A stretch of DNA of 64,000 nt, from positions 9,072 to 73,071 of the forward strand of contig CANFLS010000002.1 in NCBI GenBank assembly GCA_947447955.1. The letters run 5' to 3'. A program made the translations under genes and the position numbers. The notes beneath the pieces were generated by a model that was given only the letters and a program-made list of their open reading frames with translations, did no database searches and was not told the origin of the DNA. Positions 3,794 through 46,992 of the stretch are shown one piece after another. The DNA is from Flavobacteriales bacterium (GTDB lineage Bacteria > Bacteroidota > Bacteroidia > NS11-12g > UBA955). Each line of letters begins with the position of its first letter. The first letter of the stretch is position 1.

Positions 3794-4084
3794 TCAATCA
3801 GTCCTTTGTAACCACTCCAATCCTTTCATAGTCCAGCTTATAAGCAATTCACATTCTTCTGGAGACAACCCTTTTGTTCTGTTTATCTCAAACGTATCGA
3901 TAGATACATGAAAACCACCTAGACATTCTAAGTCCCAAATTACGTAAGTATTGCTTTCATCAAGATATGCATCTGCATTCAGAACTTGCTCATCTCTATT
4001 AAATTTACATATTAGAATCCTTTTGGATGGATCACGTGGTGCTAATGCATATTGAAAAGGCCCGTAAGAAATATAGTTATACAA
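3794..4084 (-). CDS. Small hypothetical protein, paralogue 1 of a tandem pair
   Basis: 96 aa. Its C-terminal half aligns with the neighbouring 100-aa protein: 'VIWDLECLGGFHVSIDTFEINRTKGLSPEECELLISWT' against 'VVWEVDEIGTYHVSLDNLDIDKTEGLFQEETELLQFWT'. Confidence 0.55.
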   Translation of the reverse strand: MYNYISYGPFQYALAPRDPSKRILICKFNRDEQVLNADAYLDESNTYVIWDLECLGGFHVSIDTFEINRTKGLSPEECELLISWTMKGLEWLQRTD

Positions 4085-4126
4085 AACTTGAGTTTTTTAA
4101 TTGAAGTTAATTGTTAAAACATGACA

Positions 4127-4429
4127 TCAGCCTTCTAACAAATGCATTCCATGGTGATTTGTCCAGAATTGGAGCAATTCAGTTTCTTCTTGAAATAAGC
4201 CTTCCGTTTTATCAATATCCAAATTGTCTAATGAAACGTGATAGGTTCCTATTTCATCAACTTCCCATACTACACACGTTTTACTAATATTAAGCGAACC
4301 TTCGGCAGTGATTCTTTGTTCTCCTCTGTGCAGAGTGCCAATTATTACTGTTTTCAAAGGGTCATAATCTGACCTAGGTGTTTCAACTGGAGGTTCAGCA
4401 ATTTTCAATTTGATGTCATTGGTGGTCAT
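4127..4429 (-). CDS. Small hypothetical protein, paralogue 2 of a tandem pair
   Basis: 100 aa, paralogous to 3794..4084. Immediately downstream of the caspase-like gene on the same strand. Confidence 0.55.
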   Translation of the reverse strand: MTTNDIKLKIAEPPVETPRSDYDPLKTVIIGTLHRGEQRITAEGSLNISKTCVVWEVDEIGTYHVSLDNLDIDKTEGLFQEETELLQFWTNHHGMHLLEG

Positions 4430-4485: not shown

Positions 4486-5217
4486 TTAATTTAACTTAAA
4501 AAGCTTTGAAAATTCTTGTAAATTCAAGTTGCCCAAGATGTAATCACTCTTTTGAACAGCAAGTTCATCTTTATTTATTTCCTGAACAAATTGTTCAAAG
4601 CTAAATGCTGAATTTTCATTTAATTTTTCCATCAGGGATATGAAGAATTTTTGTGTACCATATCCTCCATGAAAATTTGTATAAGCGAAATTCTCAAGTT
4701 CAGTAACATAGTACATCATGTAAAATGAGTTCATGCAATTTAGGGTATTTTCCCATTGCACTCTATTCTGTTCCGATTTTCCAGGAAAAGAGTATTCTTT
4801 TCTTAAAACTTCAAACTTAGGCGAATTAGGTGCAGGGTTGTTTGACCTACAACAATCCATAAAAATCCATTGTTTCTTATTAGGCCTTATGAATTCAGAT
4901 TCATATATGCTCTGGCCATCCTTAAGAGGGATTTGAATTCTTCTATCCACAAAATTTGAATGTCCCGAAAAATATATAAACGTATAATCAGAAGCGTCTA
5001 TTAACTCAAATATTGCATCACGGGTAATGTCATTTGTTTTGCATGTTGAAATTTCATCATCATTAAAAGAACCACCTGAAGCGGAAGTCAAAAAACACTT
5101 AATAAGTCCCAAATCCGATTCGGATTTAAACTCTTCAGAAGCGTCTAAGCTATTATCATTACAAAGAAGAATTGCTTTTCTTGTGATTTTTTTATGTTCA
5201 TTCATGGGATTATGCAT
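4486..5217 (-). CDS. Caspase-like (peptidase C14 / CHAT-like fold) cysteine protease domain protein
   Basis: beta1-like 'KAILLCND'. Catalytic-His motif 'IYFSGHS'. Catalytic-Cys motif 'IFMDCCRS' about 46 residues later, which matches the caspase/metacaspase His-Cys dyad spacing. The start overlaps the upstream small gene by 8 nt. Confidence 0.6.
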   Translation of the reverse strand: MHNPMNEHKKITRKAILLCNDNSLDASEEFKSESDLGLIKCFLTSASGGSFNDDEISTCKTNDITRDAIFELIDASDYTFIYFSGHSNFVDRRIQIPLKDGQSIYESEFIRPNKKQWIFMDCCRSNNPAPNSPKFEVLRKEYSFPGKSEQNRVQWENTLNCMNSFYMMYYVTELENFAYTNFHGGYGTQKFFISLMEKLNENSAFSFEQFVQEINKDELAVQKSDYILGNLNLQEFSKLFKLN

Positions 5218-5512
5218 CTTTATTTGTCCTGAAAATTTCTATTGCTAAATTCCTTTTTTCATGGAAAACTGTTGGGTGTACATACTCGCATTTGCCATCT
5301 TTTTCTATCCGAAAATATTCTATATGACGATGTATTCCAGCACCATCATTCGAAACATCATCTGGGACTACAGCCAGGAGATATACAATTTCTTCTAATT
5401 CGTAGTAAATCACATTTAAACAACGTCTGCTACCCCACGACAAATAATCAATTATTTGAGTTTCAAGCCTTGCATTAAACTCATCAACTGTTATTTGCTG
5501 TTCATTGGTCAT
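5210..5512 (-). CDS. Small hypothetical protein (100 aa) in an operon with the caspase-like gene
   Basis: Overlaps the downstream caspase-like ORF, so translational coupling is likely. Its start ATG overlaps the stop of an upstream paralogue remnant (ATGA). Confidence 0.5.
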   Translation of the reverse strand: MTNEQQITVDEFNARLETQIIDYLSWGSRRCLNVIYYELEEIVYLLAVVPDDVSNDGAGIHRHIEYFRIEKDGKCEYVHPTVFHEKRNLAIEIFRTNKDA

Positions 5513-5652
5513 ATTGGTATTTTATTTTTAGGTATAAGCAATTTTGTCCAAAATTGAAGCATCTCTGATTCTTCTGACGACAAACCTTCCGTTTTATCAA
5601 CAATTAATTTATATTGGATATATTTTTCAACTACTTCAATTTGCCTAACTTT
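5509..5652 (-). pseudogene. C-terminal remnant of a third member of the small-protein paralogue family. It has no start codon.
   Basis: The minus-strand frame translates to '...KLIVDKTEGLSSEESEMLQFWTKLLIPKNKIPI*'. This matches the C-termini of the 3794..4084 and 4127..4429 proteins, and the nucleotide string 'ccttccgttttatcaa' is shared with 4127..4429. There is no ATG in frame after the upstream stop. Confidence 0.45.
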
Positions 5653-7097
5653 TTCATATTGTTATATGTCCATGAGTTTTGTTTAGACGCAAAAAGTTGA
5701 CGACCATTTTTTTTGTAAAACTCTTCACCTGTCAGTGGATCCCGAATTTTTACTGACCACAAATCATCTTTAAAAAGAAGGTGCTCAGTTAGACTTCTTA
5801 TTGCACCACCAGCAGTAGTAACATTATAAACCGAAACATATTGCTTTCCACGCCTCGTCACTTCTACCTTGTTTAGAACTGCGTTTTTTGAAAGAATATA
5901 CTCTTCGGCTTTTTTGTGTTTTTTAGTACGTTCATCTTCAATTGTATCAGACCATCTAAATCTACTATCTACAATTGGGAATTTAACATTCGCTGATATT
6001 TCGATACCTTTATTCTTCAATTCAGAAATAATGAAATTAACAGAATCTTCAAACCGAAGCAAACTGGGAATTTCAGGTACAACAATTAAATTCACCCCAT
6101 ATTGTTTACATTTTTCTATTTTAAGTTTGTCATCTTGCAACAATTTTTTAGTTCCTCTATGATACTTTTCTGAGTAATGTTGTTTACCATTATGTTCAAA
6201 AGCAATTTTTAAATGATCAGAAAACCCATCTAATTCTAGTCGATTTCCTTCATTATTTAGCAACCATGTAGGTCTAACTTTTAAAAACGGAACTTCGAAA
6301 ATTGATTCGAAAATAAATCTACAAACTCTTTCGCCGACACCAGCTGAACAATAGGGACACCAAATTGATTGACTTTTGATAGTGCTATATTTTGATTTAA
6401 ACTCATGTCCATCTTTACATTTCCAAACTTGCAACTCATATGGATTGTATGTTTCTGATAAAAACTTTCCGTTCCTTGTTTCGGCGAGTGAAATACAATC
6501 TGCAATTGTAACTTTCCCTTTACCACTGCATTTTGGGCAATTTTGTTTATGATTTTTAATATTGTTGTATGTCATTGTAAAAACATGACCTTTTTTATTG
6601 CATTTCCATTGTGCTTTTATAGTTGTTCTATTTGGAATTTGAAGAGATAACAATTCACAATCCACGTGAATACCCGCCATTACATAATCATCTCGTGAAA
6701 CTTTTGTTCGGTCTTTTTGCCAAAGCTCAGTTGATAGACAAATTTTACACCAACTACCTTTAGATAAAGATTGTCCATGAGGATAAAATATATGCCCCTC
6801 ACCACATTTTACCTTGTATTTTGTATGTTGATTGATATATTGCTCACTTAGGAATTCACCACCTTTTTGTTTGCAAATTTCCCGCATGTCATCTATTGTA
6901 ATTTTCTTTTGGCCAGCACAATTAGGACACCAACTTCCTCTTAATATAGAATCCGCAGTGGCAGACCAAATGTGACCATGTTCACATTCCCAATCATAAT
7001 GTGCTTTTACACCAGAATATTCACTACTAAGGCATTTACCCAATTTTTCATTTGCGGTAAAACGCAAGTCTGTTATAGTTTTCTTTGGGTTATTCAT
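5631..7097 (-). CDS. Multi-zinc-ribbon (DUF4379-like repeats) protein with a C-terminal Vsr/DUF559-like (restriction-endonuclease-fold) domain
   Basis: About five repeats of 'W.C..GH.W......G.WCP.C' in the N-terminal 250 aa. The C-terminal 'LELDGFSDHLKIAFEHNGKQHY' matches the DUF559/Vsr 'vDF....klaiEvDGgqH' pattern. Confidence 0.5.
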   Translation of the reverse strand: MNNPKKTITDLRFTANEKLGKCLSSEYSGVKAHYDWECEHGHIWSATADSILRGSWCPNCAGQKKITIDDMREICKQKGGEFLSEQYINQHTKYKVKCGEGHIFYPHGQSLSKGSWCKICLSTELWQKDRTKVSRDDYVMAGIHVDCELLSLQIPNRTTIKAQWKCNKKGHVFTMTYNNIKNHKQNCPKCSGKGKVTIADCISLAETRNGKFLSETYNPYELQVWKCKDGHEFKSKYSTIKSQSIWCPYCSAGVGERVCRFIFESIFEVPFLKVRPTWLLNNEGNRLELDGFSDHLKIAFEHNGKQHYSEKYHRGTKKLLQDDKLKIEKCKQYGVNLIVVPEIPSLLRFEDSVNFIISELKNKGIEISANVKFPIVDSRFRWSDTIEDERTKKHKKAEEYILSKNAVLNKVEVTRRGKQYVSVYNVTTAGGAIRSLTEHLLFKDDLWSVKIRDPLTGEEFYKKNGRQLFASKQNSWTYNNMKKLGKLK

Positions 7098-7192
7098 TAT
7101 ATATCGTGAAGCGTTTATTAAACTATTTAATGAATATCGAAATAAATTGAATTCGAGGGCAGTTTATTCAAAAATCACAAAAAAAATCCAAA

Positions 7193-7232
7193 TTACAACA
7201 AAAAAAACTCCACTCATTGCTGGGTGGAGTTG
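7193..7232 (-). terminator. Rho-independent terminator downstream of the 7256..7861 gene
   Basis: Hairpin 'ctccactcattgctgggtggag' followed, on the minus strand, by a T-run. Confidence 0.45.
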
Positions 7233-7255
7233 AAAACATGTAACATAAAAAGTAT

Positions 7256-7861
7256 CTAGAAAGAACATTCGGCATCGAATTTTTCTTGAAAATACTTTTT
7301 AGGATTACACAATAGCTTCTCACGCATTACCTCGAGGGTTTTATGACCGTGAATTCCAAAATACAGAACAGGTCCAATAAGCGAATTGTCTAATGGCACG
7401 ATTGCATCAAAAGGATTGTTAAATTCATCATTCCTACTAAATAGATTAAAAATCAGGTATGACAAGTTTAGGGATTTGTTGAGTTTGTTTAACTCTGCAA
7501 TTGCTTCTGCATCCAATACTACATCTTTATTTGGAGTTGGAAAATTAATTAATGGGTTTGTCAAATCTTTAAATTTTAGGCCAAATAGTTTACCTTGTTG
7601 CAATAGTTCAAAATTGATTTGCTTACCAAAATCGCCCCAAGTGTAACTACTCATTTCGATTACTGCGTCTTCGTAATCTTTGCGTGAATCAAATCCAAAA
7701 TTTCCATCTTGATGTTCACTTTTTGTTTTTTTAATTTTATCTATTATGTTCATGATATGTTTGCCTTTAGGCAATACAAAGATACAAAATGATAAAAAAA
7801 TTACCAGTAAAATGTATAAATATTTATCAACAGTTACGTTTACATTCAACCCATAAAACAA
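7256..7861 (-). CDS. Hypothetical membrane-anchored protein
   Basis: 201-aa ORF with a hydrophobic N-terminal segment 'YLYILLVIFLSFCIFVL'. Confidence 0.4.
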   Translation of the reverse strand: MFYGLNVNVTVDKYLYILLVIFLSFCIFVLPKGKHIMNIIDKIKKTKSEHQDGNFGFDSRKDYEDAVIEMSSYTWGDFGKQINFELLQQGKLFGLKFKDLTNPLINFPTPNKDVVLDAEAIAELNKLNKSLNLSYLIFNLFSRNDEFNNPFDAIVPLDNSLIGPVLYFGIHGHKTLEVMREKLLCNPKKYFQEKFDAECSF

Positions 7862-28463: not shown

Positions 28464-28485
28464 ACTTCAAATATAAAACAAAAAC

Positions 28486-28580
28486 TATGAATTTAGTCAG
28501 TAAAATTTGAAATTATCTATTAATTTAGTCAGTAAGTTGACCAAATTTACTATTAATTTAGTCAGCCAACTGACTAAAAT
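28486..28580. promoter_or_regulatory. Operator-like repeats upstream of the DUF4143 ATPase gene
   Basis: Three copies of 'TAATTTAGTCAG' spaced about 32 bp apart. The last copy forms the perfect palindrome 'TTTAGTCAG-ccaa-CTGACTAAA'. Confidence 0.4.
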
Positions 28581-31311: not shown

Positions 31312-31483
31312 ACAATTTTACTCAATGTACTGAGTAATTTTACTCAATACGCTGAGTAATTTTACTCAGTAAAAAACCGTATGAAATCACCAATTTCGAT
31401 ATGAATTTGGTGGTTATAATCGCCAATTTCGATATGAATTTGGTGGTTATAATCGCCAATTTCGATATGAATTTGGCGATTTC
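31312..31483. promoter_or_regulatory. Operator-like repeats plus a tandem 33-bp repeat upstream of the second DUF4143 ATPase gene
   Basis: Three copies of 'AATTTTACTCA(A/G)', including the palindrome 'TACTGAGTAATTTTACTCAGTA' (31312..31378). Then about 2.9 tandem copies of 'tc(a/g)ccaatttcgatatgaatttggtggttataa' (31387..31483). Confidence 0.4.
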
Positions 31484-43321: not shown

Positions 43322-43436
43322 CGAGATTATCTCCAATGATCTCGTGGGGGTGGTGGCTCAACCCAAAAGCCTCCGCTGCTTCGCAGCTAGCGGGCTTTTT
43401 CATGCATCCCTCTCTCAAACTTCGTTTGGATTCGGT
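43322..43436. repeat. Copy D1 of the ~115-bp repeat family (tandem with D2)
   Basis: 'agattatctccaatgatctcgtgggggtggtggctcaacccaaaagcctccgctgcttcgcagctagcgggctttttcatgcatccctctctcaaacttcgtttggattcggtc'. Confidence 0.8.
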
Positions 43437-43574
43437 CGAGACTATCCTCGATAATCTTAACAGATTATCTCCAATGATCTCGTGGGGGTGGTGGCTCAAC
43501 CCAAAAGCCTGCGCAGCTTCGCAGCTAGCGGGCTTTTTCATGCATCCCTCTCTCAAACTTCGTTTGGATTCGGT
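43437..43574. repeat. Copy D2 of the repeat family
   Basis: Near-identical to D1, with an additional 5' segment shared with copy B ('tatcctcgataatcttaacagattatctcc'). Confidence 0.8.
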
Positions 43575-43579
43575 CTGCA

Positions 43580-43615: not shown

Positions 43616-43692
43616 TGGTCGGGATGGCGAGATTCGAACTCACGACCCCTTGCACCCCATGCAAGTGCGCTACCGGGCTGCGCTACATCCCG
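43616..43692 (-). tRNA. tRNA-Pro (anticodon GGG)
   Basis: Reverse complement 'CGGGATGTAGCGCAGCCCGGTAGCGCACTTGCATGGGGTGCAAGGGGTCGTGAGTTCGAATCTCGCCATCCCGACCA'. It is similar to E. coli proL, with anticodon loop 'ATGGGGT'. Confidence 0.85.
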
Positions 43693-43781: not shown

Positions 43782-45005
43782 TTATTGTGCCCACAATCCA
43801 GACAAATGTACCAATACCTCACTCGCTTTTTCCATGTCTTGCACACTCACATATTCGTGCTTTCCATGAAATGCCATTTCACCAGTGAAAATATTCGGAC
43901 AAGGCAATCCCATGAAGCTCAATCTGCTACCATCGGTGCCACCGCGTGCACTTGTTAATTGTGGTGTCATTCCTGCCATCTCAATCGCCTTGATTGCATA
44001 TTCAGAAATTTCAGGTGTCAACTGCACCACATCTTTCATATTTCGGTATTGCTCAGCAACTTCCATACTCGCAGTTGCTCCAGGATATTCAGCAACAGTT
44101 GCTTCCATCAACGCTTTCAACTTCGCTTCATGCTCTGCCAAATTCGCAGTAATAAAGTCCCTCACAATGAACTTCACATAGGCATGTTCGGCACCGCCAC
44201 CCATGGTAACCGGGTGAACAAATCCCTCACGATCAGACGTAGTTTCAGGACTCCATTCATTCTTAGGCAAACGACTCAAAAAGTCGCCAGCAATTTTCAA
44301 GGCATTCACCAACTTATCTTTGGCATAACCCGGATGGGCAGAAATTCCATAGAAATTCACTGTTGCTCCATCGGCACTAAATGTTTCATCTTCGTAGCAA
44401 CCGCGCTCACCCGCATCGAGGGTATAGCCATAATCGGCCCCTAATTTTTCAATATTTACATGATCTACCCCATGTCCAATTTCCTCATCTGGGGTAAATA
44501 AAATTTTAATATCACCATGAGGGATATTCGGATTTTGAACCATTTTTTGAACGAAATCCATAATAACCGCAACGCCTGCCTTATCATCGGCACCCAAGAG
44601 GGTTGTACCCGAAGCGGTTACGATATCGTCGCCAATTCTTTCTAACAAATAGGGATGCTCTGAAGGTTTAATCACTTGTGAAGTATCGTCGGGAAGCACA
44701 ATGTCTTGACCTTGATAATTTCTATGAACAATGGGTTTCACATTGGCCCCAGTACAATCTGGAGAAGTATCAACATGAGAGCAAAAGCAAATCACAGGTA
44801 CTTTTTTATTTACATTCGACGGCAAAGTTGCATACACATATCCATACTCATCAAGATGCGCATCGGTTAATCCCATTTCCAACAGTTCCGCGACCAAAAC
44901 CCTACTCAAATCTTTTTGTTTTTCGGTACTTGGAAACGTAGTTGACTCAGGATCACTTTGTGTATCAATCTTCACATAATTGCAGAAACGTTGTTCTATG
45001 TTCAT
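43782..45005 (-). CDS. pepT: Peptidase T (tripeptide aminopeptidase, M20B)
   Basis: M20 metal-binding motifs 'CFCSHVDTS', 'GADDKAGVA', 'TPDEEIGHG' and a C-terminal 'ARGGTDGS'. 407 aa. Confidence 0.85.
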   Translation of the reverse strand: MNIEQRFCNYVKIDTQSDPESTTFPSTEKQKDLSRVLVAELLEMGLTDAHLDEYGYVYATLPSNVNKKVPVICFCSHVDTSPDCTGANVKPIVHRNYQGQDIVLPDDTSQVIKPSEHPYLLERIGDDIVTASGTTLLGADDKAGVAVIMDFVQKMVQNPNIPHGDIKILFTPDEEIGHGVDHVNIEKLGADYGYTLDAGERGCYEDETFSADGATVNFYGISAHPGYAKDKLVNALKIAGDFLSRLPKNEWSPETTSDREGFVHPVTMGGGAEHAYVKFIVRDFITANLAEHEAKLKALMEATVAEYPGATASMEVAEQYRNMKDVVQLTPEISEYAIKAIEMAGMTPQLTSARGGTDGSRLSFMGLPCPNIFTGEMAFHGKHEYVSVQDMEKASEVLVHLSGLWAQ

Positions 45006-45037
45006 AGGTCAAAGATAAACATAAATGTTTATCTTTT

Positions 45038-45135
45038 GGATTAGACGGATTAGACGGATTAGACAGATTAGACAGATATTTTGATTAGACAGATTAGACC
45101 GGTTAGACGGATTAGACGGATTAGACGGATTTTGG
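45038..45135. repeat. Array of about 10 copies of the 9-mer (G/A)GATTAGAC. This is the left inverted terminal array of the four-helix-bundle cassette.
   Basis: 'ggattagacggattagacggattagacagattagacagatattttgattagacagattagac...'. Confidence 0.8.
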
Positions 45136-45245
45136 GTTAGGAGGGTTTGATAGTTTATTAGAGAAATTGCAATAAATGCAATTTAATTAATGAAATAACT
45201 TAGAGATTATTTAGGGGAAAGGAATTATGAATTTGTAATGAAGAA

Positions 45246-45635
45246 ATGTTTACAAGAAAAATATTCAGTTTTGAAAAATTAGAAGCGTGGAAAAATGCAC
45301 AATCTATTGCAATGAAAGTCTTTGAAATTACAGCAAAATATCCCGATTCTTATTTTTCACCCATGGCAAACCAAATGAGGCGTTCCGCCATTTCAATTAG
45401 TTCAAATATTGCCGAAGGACAAGGAAGATTTGAAGGAAAAGAACAAAGTCAATTTTACAAATTTGCTTATTCTAGTCTCATGGAATTATTAAACCAACTC
45501 ATCATAAGTCATGAATTAAATATGATTACGATTGAAGAATATGACGAAATTAGAAACCTTATTGACAAAACATCTTTACAATTAAATGGGTTAAACAGAT
45601 ACACTCGAACAAAAATCCCTCAAAAGAAATCTTAG
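45246..45635 (+). CDS. Four-helix-bundle protein (23S rRNA intervening-sequence protein family)
   Basis: 129 aa. 'FEKLEAWKNAQSIAMKVFEIT', 'MRRSAISISSNIAEGQGR', 'FYKFAYSSLMEL' match the TIGR02436/IVS-protein pattern. Confidence 0.75.
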   Translation: MFTRKIFSFEKLEAWKNAQSIAMKVFEITAKYPDSYFSPMANQMRRSAISISSNIAEGQGRFEGKEQSQFYKFAYSSLMELLNQLIISHELNMITIEEYDEIRNLIDKTSLQLNGLNRYTRTKIPQKKS

Positions 45636-45664
45636 AATCCTCCCGATAAATATCGGGATAAACA

Positions 45665-45760
45665 TCTTTATCACTAATCAAAATATCTGTCTAACCCGTT
45701 TAACCCCTAAACAAAAAATCAGTCTAATCTGTCTAACCCGTCTAATCTGTCTAACCCTAA
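45665..45760. repeat. Right inverted terminal array (GTCTAATCT / GTCTAACCC units) of the four-helix-bundle cassette
   Basis: 'ctaatcaaaatatctgtctaa' is the exact reverse complement of 'ttagacagatattttgattag' at 45067..45087. It is followed by '...gtctaatctgtctaacccgtctaatctgtctaaccc'. Confidence 0.75.
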
Positions 45761-46992
45761 ACGAGATCTGTCAAACTCATCTCCAACGCTTTGGCGCTTA
45801 AGCCTGTAGTTTTTGGATTGAATTGGTGTACACGCATGATGCTTGAGCGGATGATGTTGCTTACATCTTTGAAAATGGCAACGTCGGTTACTTCGGCATC
45901 TTGTTTCATCAAATAGGCAAATACACGCGCCATTCCACAGTTTGCAATGAAATCTGGAATAACTGCAAATTGGCTATCTGCAAGGCGAGAAATTGGACCC
46001 ATGAAAATTTCTTCATCGGCAAACGGAACGTTTGCACCACAAGAAACCACTTCGATTCCAGATTTCGCCATGCGATTTACTTGGTCTTCAGTTACCAAAC
46101 GGCTTGCAGCACCTGGAATAAATATTTCCGCAGGCAAATCCCAGATTTGGGCATTTACTTCTTCGAAGCTCATCATGTTTGGAGCGTTCAAAGAGTTACC
46201 ATCGCGGGTGAGGAACAATTCTAAAATTTCTTCATGTCCCAAACCATTCTTACTGATAATACCGCCATTGCGATCTATGATCCCTCCAATGCGAACACCG
46301 TATTTTGTTAGATAGAAGGCAGCTGCAGCAGCTACATTTCCCCAACCTTGGATAATTGCCAATTTGTTGTTCATGAAACCACCATACACTTCGTAATAGT
46401 GGCGAACACCTTCTGCAACACCCCAACCGGTAATCATGTCGGCAATGGTCAATTCTTTAGTAACATCTGGACTCAAACGCTCGTCGGTAATTGGCAACAA
46501 AACTCCTTTTTGCAAACGAGAAATGGCTTTCAATTTGTCTTCTGGAGAGTATTGAGTTAAATGTCCAGCAACAACACCTTCTTGGGGATGTAACACACCC
46601 AAAGCAGCTGTCATTGGAATCACCTCGTGAATTTCATCTACGTTTAAGTCACCACCTGTTCCATAGTAGTTTTTCAACAACGGACGAACGGCCTTGTACC
46701 AACGCTCTAAAACCCCTTTTTTACGTGGATCAGCAGGATCGAAATTAATACCAGACTTGGCACCACCAATTGGAGGACCGGCCACGGTAAATTTCACTTC
46801 CATGGTTTTTGCAAGGCTTTCAACTTCACGTTGGTTTAAACCTTTGCGCATTCGGGTTCCACCACCAGCAGCACCGTTTCTTAATGAATTGATTACAATC
46901 CAACCTTCCGCCTCTGTTTCGGCATCTTTCCAAGCAAAAACAATTTCTGGTTGTTTTCCCTCAAATTTCTGTATTAACTGATCTAATTTCAC
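45757..46992 (-). CDS. Glu/Leu/Phe/Val-family amino-acid dehydrogenase (glutamate dehydrogenase-like)
   Basis: 'GGGTRMRKGLNQREVESLAKTMEVKFTVAGPPIGGAKSG' (catalytic Lys-rich Gly motif). Rossmann motif 'IQGWGNVAAAAAFYL'. Confidence 0.75.
   Translation of the reverse strand: MKLDQLIQKFEGKQPEIVFAWKDAETEAEGWIVINSLRNGAAGGGTRMRKGLNQREVESLAKTMEVKFTVAGPPIGGAKSGINFDPADPRKKGVLERWYKAVRPLLKNYYGTGGDLNVDEIHEVIPMTAALGVLHPQEGVVAGHLTQYSPEDKLKAISRLQKGVLLPITDERLSPDVTKELTIADMITGWGVAEGVRHYYEVYGGFMNNKLAIIQGWGNVAAAAAFYLTKYGVRIGGIIDRNGGIISKNGLGHEEILELFLTRDGNSLNAPNMMSFEEVNAQIWDLPAEIFIPGAASRLVTEDQVNRMAKSGIEVVSCGANVPFADEEIFMGPISRLADSQFAVIPDFIANCGMARVFAYLMKQDAEVTDVAIFKDVSNIIRSSIMRVHQFNPKTTGLSAKALEMSLTDLV

What the first reader, a model, noticed from the sequence alone, without database searches (positions are those of the whole stretch)
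45038..45760. Four-helix-bundle (IVS-family) protein gene carried on a small cassette with inverted GATTAGAC-repeat termini, inserted between gdh and pepT
The 129-aa four-helix-bundle gene (45246..45635) is flanked on the left by about 10 tandem 9-mers '(G/A)GATTAGAC'. On the right it is flanked by the reverse-complement arrays ('GTCTAATCT/GTCTAACCC'). Both sides include an exact 21-bp inverted repeat, 'ttagacagatattttgattag' at 45067..45087 against 'ctaatcaaaatatctgtctaa' at 45670..45690. The unit sits in the intergenic region between two housekeeping genes. This family is known from 23S rRNA intervening sequences and as scattered small genes of unknown function. A terminal-inverted-repeat cassette suggests that it is a selfish, MITE-like mobile cargo.
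Basis: seen in the sequence. Interest (0 to 1): 0.5.

Follow-up and report, generated by a model that had tools for sequence, protein, structure and literature searches.

The report
IVS-type four-helix-bundle gene cassette
A small gene of the "23S rRNA intervening-sequence protein" family, bracketed by inverted arrays of 9-base repeats, was inserted long ago into a housekeeping operon, and the same bracketed layout recurs around this gene family across Bacteroidota, apparently undescribed.

Summary
A 129-aa PF05635/TIGR02436 gene (45246-45635, +) lies between a left array of about 10.6 GGATTAGAC units (45038-45131) and reverse-complement arrays on the right (45674-45757). The exact 21-nt inverted repeat exists, at slightly shifted coordinates.

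The cassette is an insertion. Relatives with 81-87% identical dehydrogenase have gdh-like and pepT 19-33 nt apart. All cassette-bearing lineages form one clade. The insertion is old and stable: synonymous sites are saturated, the ORF has dN/dS 0.06-0.16, and both arrays persist in 8 lineages.

The layout is family-wide. Of 73 distant four-helix-bundle loci, 37% have flank inverted repeats made of 7-9-nt tandem units, against 0.8% of control genes. These genes are almost always co-oriented with their neighbours.

A freshwater contig carries ORF-less miniature elements with 91% identical arms, so the termini belong to a dispersed family.

Best reading: this is a non-ribosomal counterpart of ORF-bearing 23S rRNA intervening sequences. 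Its arms probably pair into an RNase III-type stem, but that step is inferred. "MITE-like mobile cargo" is only partly supported. I found no current mobility, no target-site duplication and no transposase.

The parts
45010..45017 (-). Bacteroidetes-type -7 promoter box TAnnTTTG (TATCTTTG on the minus strand), ending 4 nt upstream of the pepT ATG.
   Evidence: the motif is at the same position in all 7 cassette-bearing lineages examined, with the two 'nn' bases varying. It is absent from the spacers of relatives that lack the cassette. The promoter function is inferred.
45011..45036 (.). Perfect 12+12 palindrome AAAGATAAACAT-AA-ATGTTTATCTTT, lying between pepT and the left array and overlapping the -7 box.
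   Evidence: (I22). It is specific to the window lineage and is not seen in the orthologs.
45038..45131 (+). Left (5') arm: about 10.6 tandem 9-mers of the form (G/A)G(A/G)TTAGAC, interrupted once by AGATATTTTG.
   Evidence: Copy number varies by one unit among strains.
45132..45245 (+). Leader of 114 nt between the left arm and the ATG. It contains the palindrome AAATTGCA-ATAAA-TGCAATTT at 45164-45184.
   Evidence: A TTGCAA-N3-5-T(T)GCAA motif is visible in the upstream region of all orthologs. No TAnnTTTG box lies on the + strand here.
45246..45635 (+). Four-helix-bundle protein gene of 129 aa, family PF05635/TIGR02436, with a predicted pI of 9.3.
   Evidence: Family assignment. AlphaFold2 model with pLDDT 95.5 and four long helices. 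Best structural matches are 2GSC, 2RLD and the DGR protein Avd (4DWL, 8UB7). dN/dS 0.06-0.16. pI.
45641..45658 (.). Hairpin TCCCGATAAATATCGGGA, starting 5 nt after the stop codon.
   Evidence: A similar TCCCGA-N-TCGGGA hairpin accompanies the arrays in L133 and L173.
45674..45757 (-). Right (3') arm: reverse-complement units GTCTAATC(T/C) and GTCTAACCC plus the subterminal stretch CCCGTTTAACCCCTAAACAAAAAATC. It ends at the dehydrogenase stop codon.
   Evidence: It is 91% identical over 79 nt to L133:7080-7157. In L004 this arm is about 106 nt longer.
45038..45757 (+). The whole cassette of about 720 bp, absent from outgroup relatives.
   Evidence: Empty sites. Phylogeny. The arms pair in the predicted folds of both strands, with z-scores of -7.5 and -8.6.

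Best explanation
This is a non-ribosomal 'intervening-sequence-type' cassette. A gene for a basic four-helix-bundle protein sits in the loop of a long inverted repeat whose two arms are arrays of a short tandem unit. The protein belongs to the S23p / 23S-IVS protein family, which is homologous to the DGR accessory protein Avd.

Shown:
- The cassette entered the 19-33-nt spacer of an anmK-gdh-pepT operon once, in the ancestor of a freshwater Bacteroidota clade. It is oriented antisense to the operon.
- It has since been inherited vertically. The ORF is under purifying selection, and both arrays are kept and change in step.
- The same plan flanks a large fraction of distant PF05635 genes. That plan is a G-rich, C-poor 7-9-nt array upstream on the coding strand and its reverse complement just after the stop codon.
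- Those distant genes nearly always lie in the sense orientation inside co-directional gene runs.

Inferred:
- Any RNA that spans the cassette folds its two arms into a 50-95-bp imperfect duplex. That duplex would be cut by RNase III, as was shown experimentally for the ORF-bearing IVS of Coxiella 23S rRNA, whose stem also contains tandem heptamers (GACAGAT).
- The element is therefore removed from, or splits, the host transcript at the RNA level, which makes insertion into rRNA or operons tolerable.
- In this clade the operon was cut. pepT appears to have gained its own -7 box at the outer edge of the left arm.
- The way such cassettes move at the DNA level, and the biochemical role of the protein, remain unknown. 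Binding nucleic acid as a pentamer, as Avd does, is a guess.
For: - Protein family and fold.
- Arms and their statistics.
- Predicted folds: both strands pair the arms, at -188.9 kcal/mol (z -7.5) and -195 kcal/mol (z -8.6).
- Empty sites and a single origin.
- Persistence: the same site and arrays occur in 8 lineages, with dS above 1.3 and dN/dS 0.06-0.16.
- Concerted change of the unit's last base: it is C in both arms in the window and L011, and G or A in both arms in L017, L202, L204 and L205.
- Family-wide flank inverted repeats: score >=35 in 37% of 73 distant loci against 0.8% of 120 control genes, p 1e-16.
- Family-wide tandem arrays: present on both sides in 22 of 76 loci against 2 of 133 controls.
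- Arm examples from other loci.
- Orientation: 59 of 62 cassettes lying between co-directional neighbours are in the sense orientation, p 1.7e-14.
- No room for a promoter: in L093 the array ends 17 nt before the ATG, and the cassette sits between the upstream gene's stop codon and an intrinsic terminator.
- None of the 20 loci with the strongest inverted repeats is in rRNA.
- Precedent: the Coxiella IVS has a 28-bp terminal-repeat stem, RNase III cleavage, and 2-4 tandem GACAGAT heptamers with strain-level copy-number variation (PMC4990558).
Against: - Mismatches between the arms show no G-U bias on either strand. Across 31 loci there are 41 sense-compatible transitions, 48 antisense-compatible transitions and 113 transversions. 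Selection for RNA pairing is therefore not demonstrated.
- Units share a recurring GTTTA-like core, seen in 19 of 29 arms against 8.4 expected. Arm polarity is strict, with G>C in 27 of 29 arms. Both hint at sequence-specific recognition, not mere complementarity.
- In this window the gene is antisense to the host operon, which is the 3-in-62 minority arrangement. It has a conserved 114-nt leader, so its own mRNA may start inside the left arm boundary and lack the 5' arm.
- No RNA data or RNase III test is available here.
- 63% of distant loci fall below the inverted-repeat threshold.
Confidence: 0.5

Rival explanations
1. DNA-level mobile element with subterminal repeat arrays. The arrays would be multiple binding sites for a trans-acting recombinase, or for the four-helix-bundle protein itself, as at Mu/Tn7 ends or in the RAYT-REPIN arrangement. 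The cassette would be the 'master' copy and the ORF-less pairs its miniature derivatives.
For: - The site is empty in relatives.
- L133 has at least two miniature copies with 91% identical cores that are bounded exactly by the arrays, sitting in consecutive housekeeping spacers.
- An L133 arm is 91% identical over 79 nt to the window's right arm.
- A GTTTA-like core recurs in the units, and arm polarity is strict.
- Protein identity correlates weakly with arm k-mer content, rho 0.22.
- Arm mismatches show no RNA-type bias.
Against: - No transposase or recombinase lies in or next to the cassette.
- No target-site duplication is seen at the window cassette or at the L133 copies.
- The window holds only one copy in 64 kb.
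- In the 29 loci with a shared 7-mer (26 of them distant), the unit is seldom seen beyond 300 nt either side of the gene.
- None of the 78 other GATTAGAC-array loci encodes a four-helix-bundle protein.
- The position has been stable over saturated dS.
Confidence: 0.25
2. The arrays are regulatory or contingency repeats. They would be iteron-like operator sites, or slippage-prone spacers that tune expression of the four-helix-bundle gene or pepT. The inverted symmetry would then be incidental to a divergent or convergent promoter and terminator layout.
For: - Unit copy number varies among strains.
- A conserved -7 box for pepT lies at the array edge.
- Precedents exist for intergenic heptamer repeats proposed as regulator sites (PMC4679880) and for a Porphyromonas MITE containing a minisatellite with promoter activity (PMC4596501).
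Against: - The pepT -7 box lies outside the array, so unit gain or loss does not change the spacing downstream of the -7 box; the -33 element was not located.
- This reading does not explain why the downstream arm is the reverse complement of the upstream arm in 37% of distant loci.
- It does not explain the ORF-less paired copies.
Confidence: 0.12
3. The association is coincidental. A lineage-wide microsatellite happens to flank an unrelated small gene.
For: GATTAGAC arrays occur at many loci without the gene in metagenome contigs, including solo arrays that begin right after stop codons.
Against: - Gene-flanking inverted arrays are enriched about 45-fold over control genes in unrelated Bacteroidota, and the unit sequences differ between loci.
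- Within the window the unit occurs only at this cassette, apart from one chance hit.
- The arrays are retained in all 8 orthologous lineages.
Confidence: 0.03
4. The gene is the Avd accessory gene of a degraded diversity-generating retroelement (DGR).
For: - A weak PHROG hit to 'Avd protein of DGR', E 0.0013.
- Structural similarity to 4DWL and 8UB7.
Against: - Within 5 kb on either side in the window and its orthologs, no called gene carries a reverse-transcriptase Pfam family; several have no hit on record, and template/variable repeats were not searched for. The genes with hits are pepT, the dehydrogenase, anmK, an aminotransferase and an AMP-binding enzyme.
- The closest structural match is the non-DGR protein Xcc0516 (2GSC), at 31% identity against 10% for Avd.
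Confidence: 0.02

Closest known systems
ORF-bearing intervening sequences (IVS) of 23S rRNA in Coxiella, Leptospira, Brucella and Xanthomonas-type organisms
   Same: - The ORF belongs to the same protein family (PF05635/S23p).
- The size is similar, 0.4-0.76 kb.
- The ORF lies in the loop of a stem formed by terminal inverted repeats.
- In Coxiella the 5' arm contains 2-4 tandem heptamers GACAGAT with strain-level copy variation, and RNase III cuts at the first repeat (PMC4990558). The window unit, ttaGACAGATtaGACAGAT, contains that heptamer.
   Different: - This cassette is not in rRNA. It sits in a protein-coding operon spacer, and here it is antisense to the operon.
- Its arms are much longer, about 85-95 nt made of 9-mers.
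- The ORF is clearly under purifying selection, whereas the Coxiella ORF is reported to be decaying and probably untranslated.
- Excision at the RNA level has not been tested here.
RAYT / REP-REPIN systems
   Same: - A single-copy, vertically inherited gene is flanked by inverted copies of a short repeat.
- That repeat also occurs elsewhere as ORF-less inverted pairs and as solo copies in intergenic spacers (L133, L155).
   Different: - The protein is a four-helix bundle, not an IS200/IS605-type tyrosine transposase.
- The repeats are tandem arrays of 7-9-mers, not 20-40-nt palindromes.
- Dispersed copies were seen in another contig, not in this window's genome.
MITEs, including BrickBuilt of Porphyromonas gingivalis (PMC4596501)
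   Same: - It is small, intergenic and bounded by inverted repeats.
- It is a Bacteroidota element containing tandem repeats.
- It may carry promoter activity at its edges.
   Different: - It carries a conserved protein-coding gene.
- No target-site duplication is visible.
- There is no multi-copy evidence in this genome.
- The tandem repeats form the termini themselves, whereas in BrickBuilt they form an internal minisatellite.
Intergenic short tandem repeats of cyanobacteria, Beggiatoaceae and Bacteroidetes (STRR; TAACTGA heptamers, PMC4679880)
   Same: - The arrays are made of 7-9-nt units with variable copy number.
- They are confined to intergenic DNA, often beginning right at start or stop codons.
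- Their phylogenetic distribution is patchy.
   Different: - Those arrays are described as direct repeats near start codons.
- In the papers I read they have no reported pairing into inverted arms and no reported link to PF05635 genes.
Avd of diversity-generating retroelements
   Same: - It shares the homologous four-helix-bundle fold and a basic character.
- Avd forms a pentamer that holds the reverse transcriptase and RNA (4DWL, 8UB7).
   Different: - No reverse transcriptase or template/variable repeats lie nearby.
- Sequence identity to Avd is only about 10%.

Membership tests
PF05635 / TIGR02436 four-helix-bundle (23S rRNA IVS protein, S23p) family | The profile HMM match exceeds the curated cutoff. 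| tested here: met
   Pfam gives 98 bits against a cutoff of 33.8, covering the full profile (1-106 of 106). TIGR02436 gives 88.6 bits against a cutoff of 24.
PF05635 / TIGR02436 four-helix-bundle (23S rRNA IVS protein, S23p) family | The protein has a four-helix-bundle fold like Xcc0516 (2GSC). | tested here: met
   The AlphaFold2 model has pLDDT 95.5 and four long helices. Foldseek matches 2GSC with TM-score 0.86/0.95, rmsd 1.1-1.4 A and 31% identity. phmmer against PDB sequences gives E 1.3e-13.
PF05635 / TIGR02436 four-helix-bundle (23S rRNA IVS protein, S23p) family | The protein assembles as a homopentameric toroid. | not testable with these tools
   Only a monomer was modelled.
23S rRNA intervening sequence (IVS) element | The element is located inside a 23S rRNA gene (helix 9, 25 or 45). 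| tested here: not met
   It lies between pepT and an ELFV dehydrogenase. Rfam finds only three tRNAs in the window.
23S rRNA intervening sequence (IVS) element | Terminal inverted repeats form a stem that encloses the ORF. | tested here: met
   The arms are 55 nt at 87% complementarity, with further registers also pairing. Minimum-free-energy and centroid folds of both strands pair the arms, with z-scores of -7.5 and -8.6.
23S rRNA intervening sequence (IVS) element | RNase III excises the element from the precursor RNA. | not testable with these tools
   This needs RNA ends or an in vitro cleavage assay. The precedent is PMC4990558.
MITE (miniature inverted-repeat transposable element) | The element has terminal inverted repeats and is small. 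| tested here: met
   The cassette is about 720 bp, with arms of 85-95 nt.
MITE (miniature inverted-repeat transposable element) | The element is non-coding. | tested here: not met
   It carries an intact 129-aa ORF with dN/dS 0.06-0.16.
MITE (miniature inverted-repeat transposable element) | The element is present in multiple copies in the same genome. | tested here: not met
   The 64-kb window contains no other array and no other four-helix-bundle gene. The rest of the genome was not available. Multi-copy ORF-less relatives were seen only in another contig, L133.
MITE (miniature inverted-repeat transposable element) | A target-site duplication flanks the element. | tested here: inconclusive
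   None is visible at the window cassette or at the L133 copies. The insertion is old, so a short duplication could have eroded.
DGR accessory protein Avd | The gene lies next to a reverse transcriptase and a template/variable repeat pair. | tested here: not met
   No called gene within 5 kb on either side in the window strain or the orthologs carries a reverse-transcriptase Pfam family; some genes have no hit on record, and template/variable repeats were not searched for.
RAYT-REPIN-like system | The gene is flanked by inverted copies of a repeat that is dispersed in the same genome. | tested here: inconclusive
   Flanking by inverted repeats is met. Dispersal was seen only in other contigs of unknown relationship to this genome.
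RAYT-REPIN-like system | The gene encodes a Y1 (HUH) transposase. | tested here: not met
   The protein is a four-helix bundle with no other Pfam hit.

The most novel reading that the evidence does not exclude
PF05635 four-helix-bundle proteins and short-tandem-repeat arrays form a two-part system found across Bacteroidota, and perhaps in cyanobacteria and in the ORF-bearing rRNA IVSs. In this reading the basic, probably pentameric protein recognises the GTTTA-like 7-9-nt units, as DNA or as RNA. It would be responsible for maintaining or dispersing array-bounded elements, in the way a RAYT serves its REPINs. The gene-bearing cassette would be the master copy. ORF-less inverted pairs and solo arrays would be its derivatives, and 23S IVSs would be the special case of insertion into rRNA.
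Probability: 0.15. Interest if true: 0.85.

Novelty: new variant of a known kind. Interest (0 to 1): 0.6.

Why it matters
PF05635 is a very large family of small genes. They are annotated only as 'four helix bundle protein' and have no known function outside DGRs. The origin and mobility of ORF-bearing rRNA intervening sequences have been open questions since the 1990s.

Three results here make those questions testable:
- The gene comes as a package with inverted short-tandem-repeat arms.
- The package occurs in ordinary operons, nearly always in the sense orientation.
- Empty sites and miniature derivatives exist.

Together these give a defined RNA/DNA substrate (the arms), a candidate ligand for the protein, and natural presence/absence pairs.

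There are also practical consequences. These cassettes split operons; here pepT appears to have gained its own promoter. They also break metagenome assemblies, as contigs L004 and L007 start inside the left array. In one published Flavobacterium columnare comparison, a four-helix-bundle gene between guanylate kinase and the NaMN adenylyltransferase gene was listed inside a predicted 'phage region'.

Tried and rejected
- Second copy in the window: tblastn with 48 family members and a motif search found none.
- Known RNA family over the arms: Rfam at gathering thresholds found only tRNAs in the window, and one tRNA in the 20 loci with the strongest inverted repeats.
- Choosing the functional RNA strand from G-U-compatible mismatches: there is no bias, 41 against 48. 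The fold energies of the two strands are also similar.
- Defence-system membership: PADLOC gave no hit.
- Phage carriage: only 1 relative was found in 2.9 million viral contigs.
- The 259-nt gdh-pepT spacer of L104 as a decayed cassette: it has no significant similarity to the cassette and no protein remnant. This is left open.
- Four-helix-bundle genes next to other GATTAGAC arrays: a profile search of 78 loci found none. Most of those hits come from one metagenome (Ga0126342) with arrays hundreds of bp long. They may be an unrelated minisatellite.
- A canonical Bacteroidetes -7 box upstream of the four-helix-bundle ATG: none in any ortholog.
- Literature searches for PF05635, TIGR02436 or S23p together with repeats outside rRNA found no description of this architecture. 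The library searched is open-access only, so absence is not proof.
Full report
**1. The observation**

The region reads as described. The ORF at 45246..45635 (+) encodes 129 aa. It matches PF05635 end to end (E 4.6e-28) and TIGR02436 (88.6 bits against a cutoff of 24).

Tandem Repeats Finder reports a 9-nt array at 45038-45131 with 10.6 copies and consensus GGATTAGAC. It also reports reverse-complement arrays between 45674 and 45757. GATTAGAC occurs 11 times in the window against 1.13 expected, and no shuffle out of 100 reached 11. Ten of the eleven occurrences lie in the two arrays.

The best arm pair is 55 nt at 87% complementarity, and many shifted registers also pair.

The neighbours are pepT (43782..45005, -) and an ELFV-family amino-acid dehydrogenase (45757..46992, -). 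The dehydrogenase is called gdh below for brevity, although its NCBIfam GDH scores are far below their cutoffs. anmK follows it. The right array ends exactly at the gdh stop codon.

**2. It is an insertion, a single one, and an old one**

The identical protein is found on at least 10 metagenome or MAG contigs, always as pepT-4HB-gdh (4HB = the four-helix-bundle gene). Differences are limited to a one-unit change in the left array. One strain has a right arm about 106 nt longer.

Proteins 74-80% identical to it (P0004 to P0009) also sit between pepT and gdh, and they are also flanked by arrays.

Relatives found through the dehydrogenase tell the other half of the story:
- Contigs with 87% and 81-84% identical gdh have anmK-gdh-pepT with only 33 and 19 nt between gdh and pepT, and no cassette.
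- One contig at 91% has an unrelated 259-nt spacer.
- One group lacks pepT at this position.

In neighbour-joining trees of both gdh and pepT, the cassette carriers form one clade (gdh at least 93% identical), and all the non-carriers lie outside it. The simplest history is one insertion into an operon spacer, antisense to the operon.

Among carriers, synonymous divergence is saturated (dS 1.3 to above 3). Even so, the ORF has dN/dS 0.06-0.16, compared with 0.02-0.06 for gdh and pepT. The arrays persist on both sides in all eight lineages.

The last base of the unit differs by lineage but tends to be shared by the two arms. It is C in the window and L011, and G or A in L017, L202, L204 and L205. 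The arms therefore evolve in concert.

**3. The layout is a property of the gene family, not of this locus**

A scan of species-representative genomes returned 80 loci encoding 36-50% identical relatives. They come from Flavobacteriaceae, Chitinophagaceae, Saprospiraceae, Bacteroidales and a few other phyla.

I aligned the 300 nt upstream of each gene against the reverse complement of the 300 nt downstream:
- 37% of 73 loci scored 35 or more, against 0.8% of 120 other genes in the same loci. Shuffled and direct-orientation controls scored about 19-20. Mann-Whitney p is 1e-16.
- The arms are themselves tandem arrays, such as GTTTAGAG, GTTGTGAA, GTGATTAG, GGTTTAT, GAGCAGG and GTAGTAGG. The best period is most often 8, then 7, then 9.
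- Tandem Repeats Finder finds arrays of period 6-12 on both sides in 22 of 76 loci against 2 of 133 controls. It finds them on at least one side in 54 of 76 against 22 of 133.

The arms have a fixed polarity. The upstream arm is G-rich and C-poor on the coding strand in 27 of 29 loci, p 1.6e-6. GTTTA occurs in 19 of 29 arms against 8.4 expected.

The 3' arm starts a median of 18 nt after the stop codon. The 5' arm ends a median of 56 nt before the ATG.

Where both neighbours point the same way, the cassette is in the sense orientation in 59 of 62 cases, p 1.7e-14. The window's clade belongs to the antisense minority.

A spot check of L093 shows the compact form. In order, it reads: the upstream gene's stop codon, 9 nt, four GTGATTAG units, 17 nt, the ORF, 9 nt, seven CTAATCA units, and then a canonical terminator. 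That leaves no room for a promoter, so the cassette must be transcribed with its host gene.

None of the 20 loci with the strongest inverted repeats lies in rRNA.

**4. The termini also exist without the gene**

An exact-match scan of metagenome contigs for three consecutive units found 87 stretches. Only the two known orthologs encode a four-helix-bundle protein, by tblastn and by profile search.

Many of the hits come from a single metagenome with arrays hundreds of bases long, and they may be unrelated.

Freshwater contig L133 is different. It is 10.8 kb, 40% GC, and carries housekeeping genes. It has array-bounded elements in four consecutive spacers. Two of them are copies of one roughly 260-bp element: a (+) array, a 150-nt AT-rich core without an ORF, and a (-) array. 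Their similarity begins and ends at the arrays, and no target-site duplication is visible.

An L133 arm, including its non-repetitive subterminal part, is 91% identical over 79 nt to the window's right arm. A TCCCGA-N-TCGGGA hairpin like the one at 45641-45658 accompanies the arrays there as well.

The arms therefore belong to a dispersed, modular repeat family, which is the strongest support for past mobility. In the 29 loci with a shared 7-mer (26 of them distant), the unit is seldom seen beyond 300 nt either side of the gene. The window has no second copy.

**5. The protein**

AlphaFold2 gives a confident four-helix bundle with pLDDT 95.5. The best structural matches are:
- Xcc0516 (2GSC, a pentameric toroid; TM-score 0.86/0.95, 31% identity);
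- BT_0352 (2RLD);
- the DGR accessory protein Avd, alone (4DWL) and within the reverse transcriptase-RNA particle (8UB7).

The predicted pI is 9.3, and the family median is 9.2.

No gene with a reverse-transcriptase Pfam family lies within 5 kb; template/variable repeats were not looked for. PADLOC gives no hit. Relatives are almost absent from viral contigs.

**6. How it most likely works**

The closest described object is the ORF-bearing IVS of 23S rRNA. It has the same protein family, the same size class, and an ORF in the loop of a terminal-repeat stem.

For Coxiella, RNase III was shown to cut that stem. The authors also noted 2-4 tandem GACAGAT heptamers in the 5' arm, with strain-level copy variation (PMC4990558). 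The window unit, ttaGACAGATtaGACAGAT, contains that heptamer.

Both strands of 45030-45765 are predicted to pair the arms into a long interrupted stem, at -188.9 and -195 kcal/mol with z-scores of -7.5 and -8.6.

I therefore read the cassette as an IVS-type module living in an operon instead of in rRNA. The arms make a duplex in any spanning RNA, RNase III would cut it, and the host transcript is split, not poisoned. Tandem units make such a stem robust, because slippage of whole units still leaves the arms able to pair in a shifted register.

The status of each step is:
- Shown: the anatomy, the insertion, the conservation and the family-wide pattern.
- Inferred: the RNA duplex in vivo and cleavage by RNase III.
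- Unknown: the DNA-level transfer mechanism and the protein's activity.

In this clade the operon was interrupted. A perfect Bacteroidetes -7 box (TAnnTTTG) lies 4 nt upstream of the pepT ATG, at the outer edge of the left arm, in all seven carrier lineages examined. It is absent from the spacers of the relatives without the cassette. This suggests that pepT now has its own, near-leaderless promoter.

**7. Evidence against, and the rival readings**

Arm mismatches show no preference for G-U-compatible changes on either strand, and many are transversions. The recurring GTTTA-like core, the strict polarity and a weak correlation between protein identity and unit content (rho 0.22) all point towards sequence-specific recognition.

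That fits a DNA-level element with subterminal binding-site arrays, or a relationship between the protein and the arrays like that of a RAYT and its REPINs. Against this reading, there is no transposase, no target-site duplication and no dispersal in this window.

Regulatory or contingency-repeat explanations do not account for the inverted symmetry. The coincidental-microsatellite reading is excluded by the controls. A DGR remnant finds no support in the gene neighbourhood, where no reverse transcriptase was seen.

**8. Novelty**

The protein family, rRNA IVSs, intergenic heptamer arrays (PMC4679880) and Bacteroidota MITEs with tandem repeats (PMC4596501) are each known.

I found no description of PF05635 genes outside rRNA being systematically bracketed by inverted short-tandem-repeat arms, of their orientation bias, or of their miniature derivatives. 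The search covered open-access literature only.

I rate it a new variant of a known kind, with moderately high interest.

Noticed in passing
L017:4394-4582, and likewise L202, L204, L205, L023 and L200: In most orthologous lineages, the + strand just before the dehydrogenase stop codon carries an inverted copy of that gene's last ~23 nt: GAAATGAGTTTAACGGATTTGGT|TTA|AACCAAATCC.... This gives a perfect hairpin centred on the stop codon. The block made of the inverted gene end plus the array is tandemly duplicated twice (L017, L205) or three times (L202). The window lacks this feature, and its array abuts the TAG directly.
   Followed up: partly
window 45011-45036: A perfect 12+12 palindrome lies between pepT and the left array and contains the proposed pepT -7 box. 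Its + strand half reads TATCTTTTG, a near -7 box pointing into the cassette. It occurs only in the window lineage.
   Followed up: partly
window 43324-43575 and 43616-43692: A 138-nt unit is repeated 1.8 times at 98% identity, immediately beside tRNA-Pro(GGG), downstream of pepT. In other strains of the same species (L003, L005, L006) the DNA beyond pepT carries an HTH / Couple_hipA / HipA_C toxin-antitoxin module instead. This is therefore a strain-variable spot next to a tRNA.
   Followed up: no
L133:1293-1549, 4057-4322, 5595-6019, 7084-7396: Four consecutive intergenic spacers among housekeeping genes hold GATTAGAC-array elements. They include two ~260-bp ORF-less inverted-array copies and mosaic forms with a ~95-nt block repeated three times.
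   Followed up: partly
L155:4042-4166; L169:740-860 and 4800-5230: Solo arrays of up to 14 GATTAGAC units begin right at the stop codon of a small gene in L155 (not identified with any tool). In L169, GATTAGAC-type arrays lie next to arrays of a different unit (GGTTTAG / GTTTAGG).
   Followed up: no
L114-L192 from metagenome Ga0126342: Dozens of contigs from one metagenome carry one-stranded GATTAGAC arrays 100-600 nt long, sometimes several per contig. Their origin is unknown. They may be a eukaryotic or otherwise unrelated minisatellite.
   Followed up: no
L004:1-175, L007:1-193: Several metagenome contigs begin inside the left array, so these arrays break short-read assemblies. The contig-length tallies for this protein are dominated by short contigs.
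   Followed up: no
window 31385-31476 and 28483-28565: Two 33-nt tandem repeats lie elsewhere in the window: 2.8 copies at 98% identity and 2.5 copies at 80% identity. Their context was not examined.
   Followed up: no
literature: Flavobacterium columnare 94-081, positions 175781-177372 (PMC5524665): A published 'phage region' table lists guanylate kinase, a four-helix-bundle protein and NaMN adenylyltransferase with spacers of about 35 nt. This is the same pattern of a cassette between co-directional housekeeping genes, and was probably mis-called as phage.
   Followed up: no
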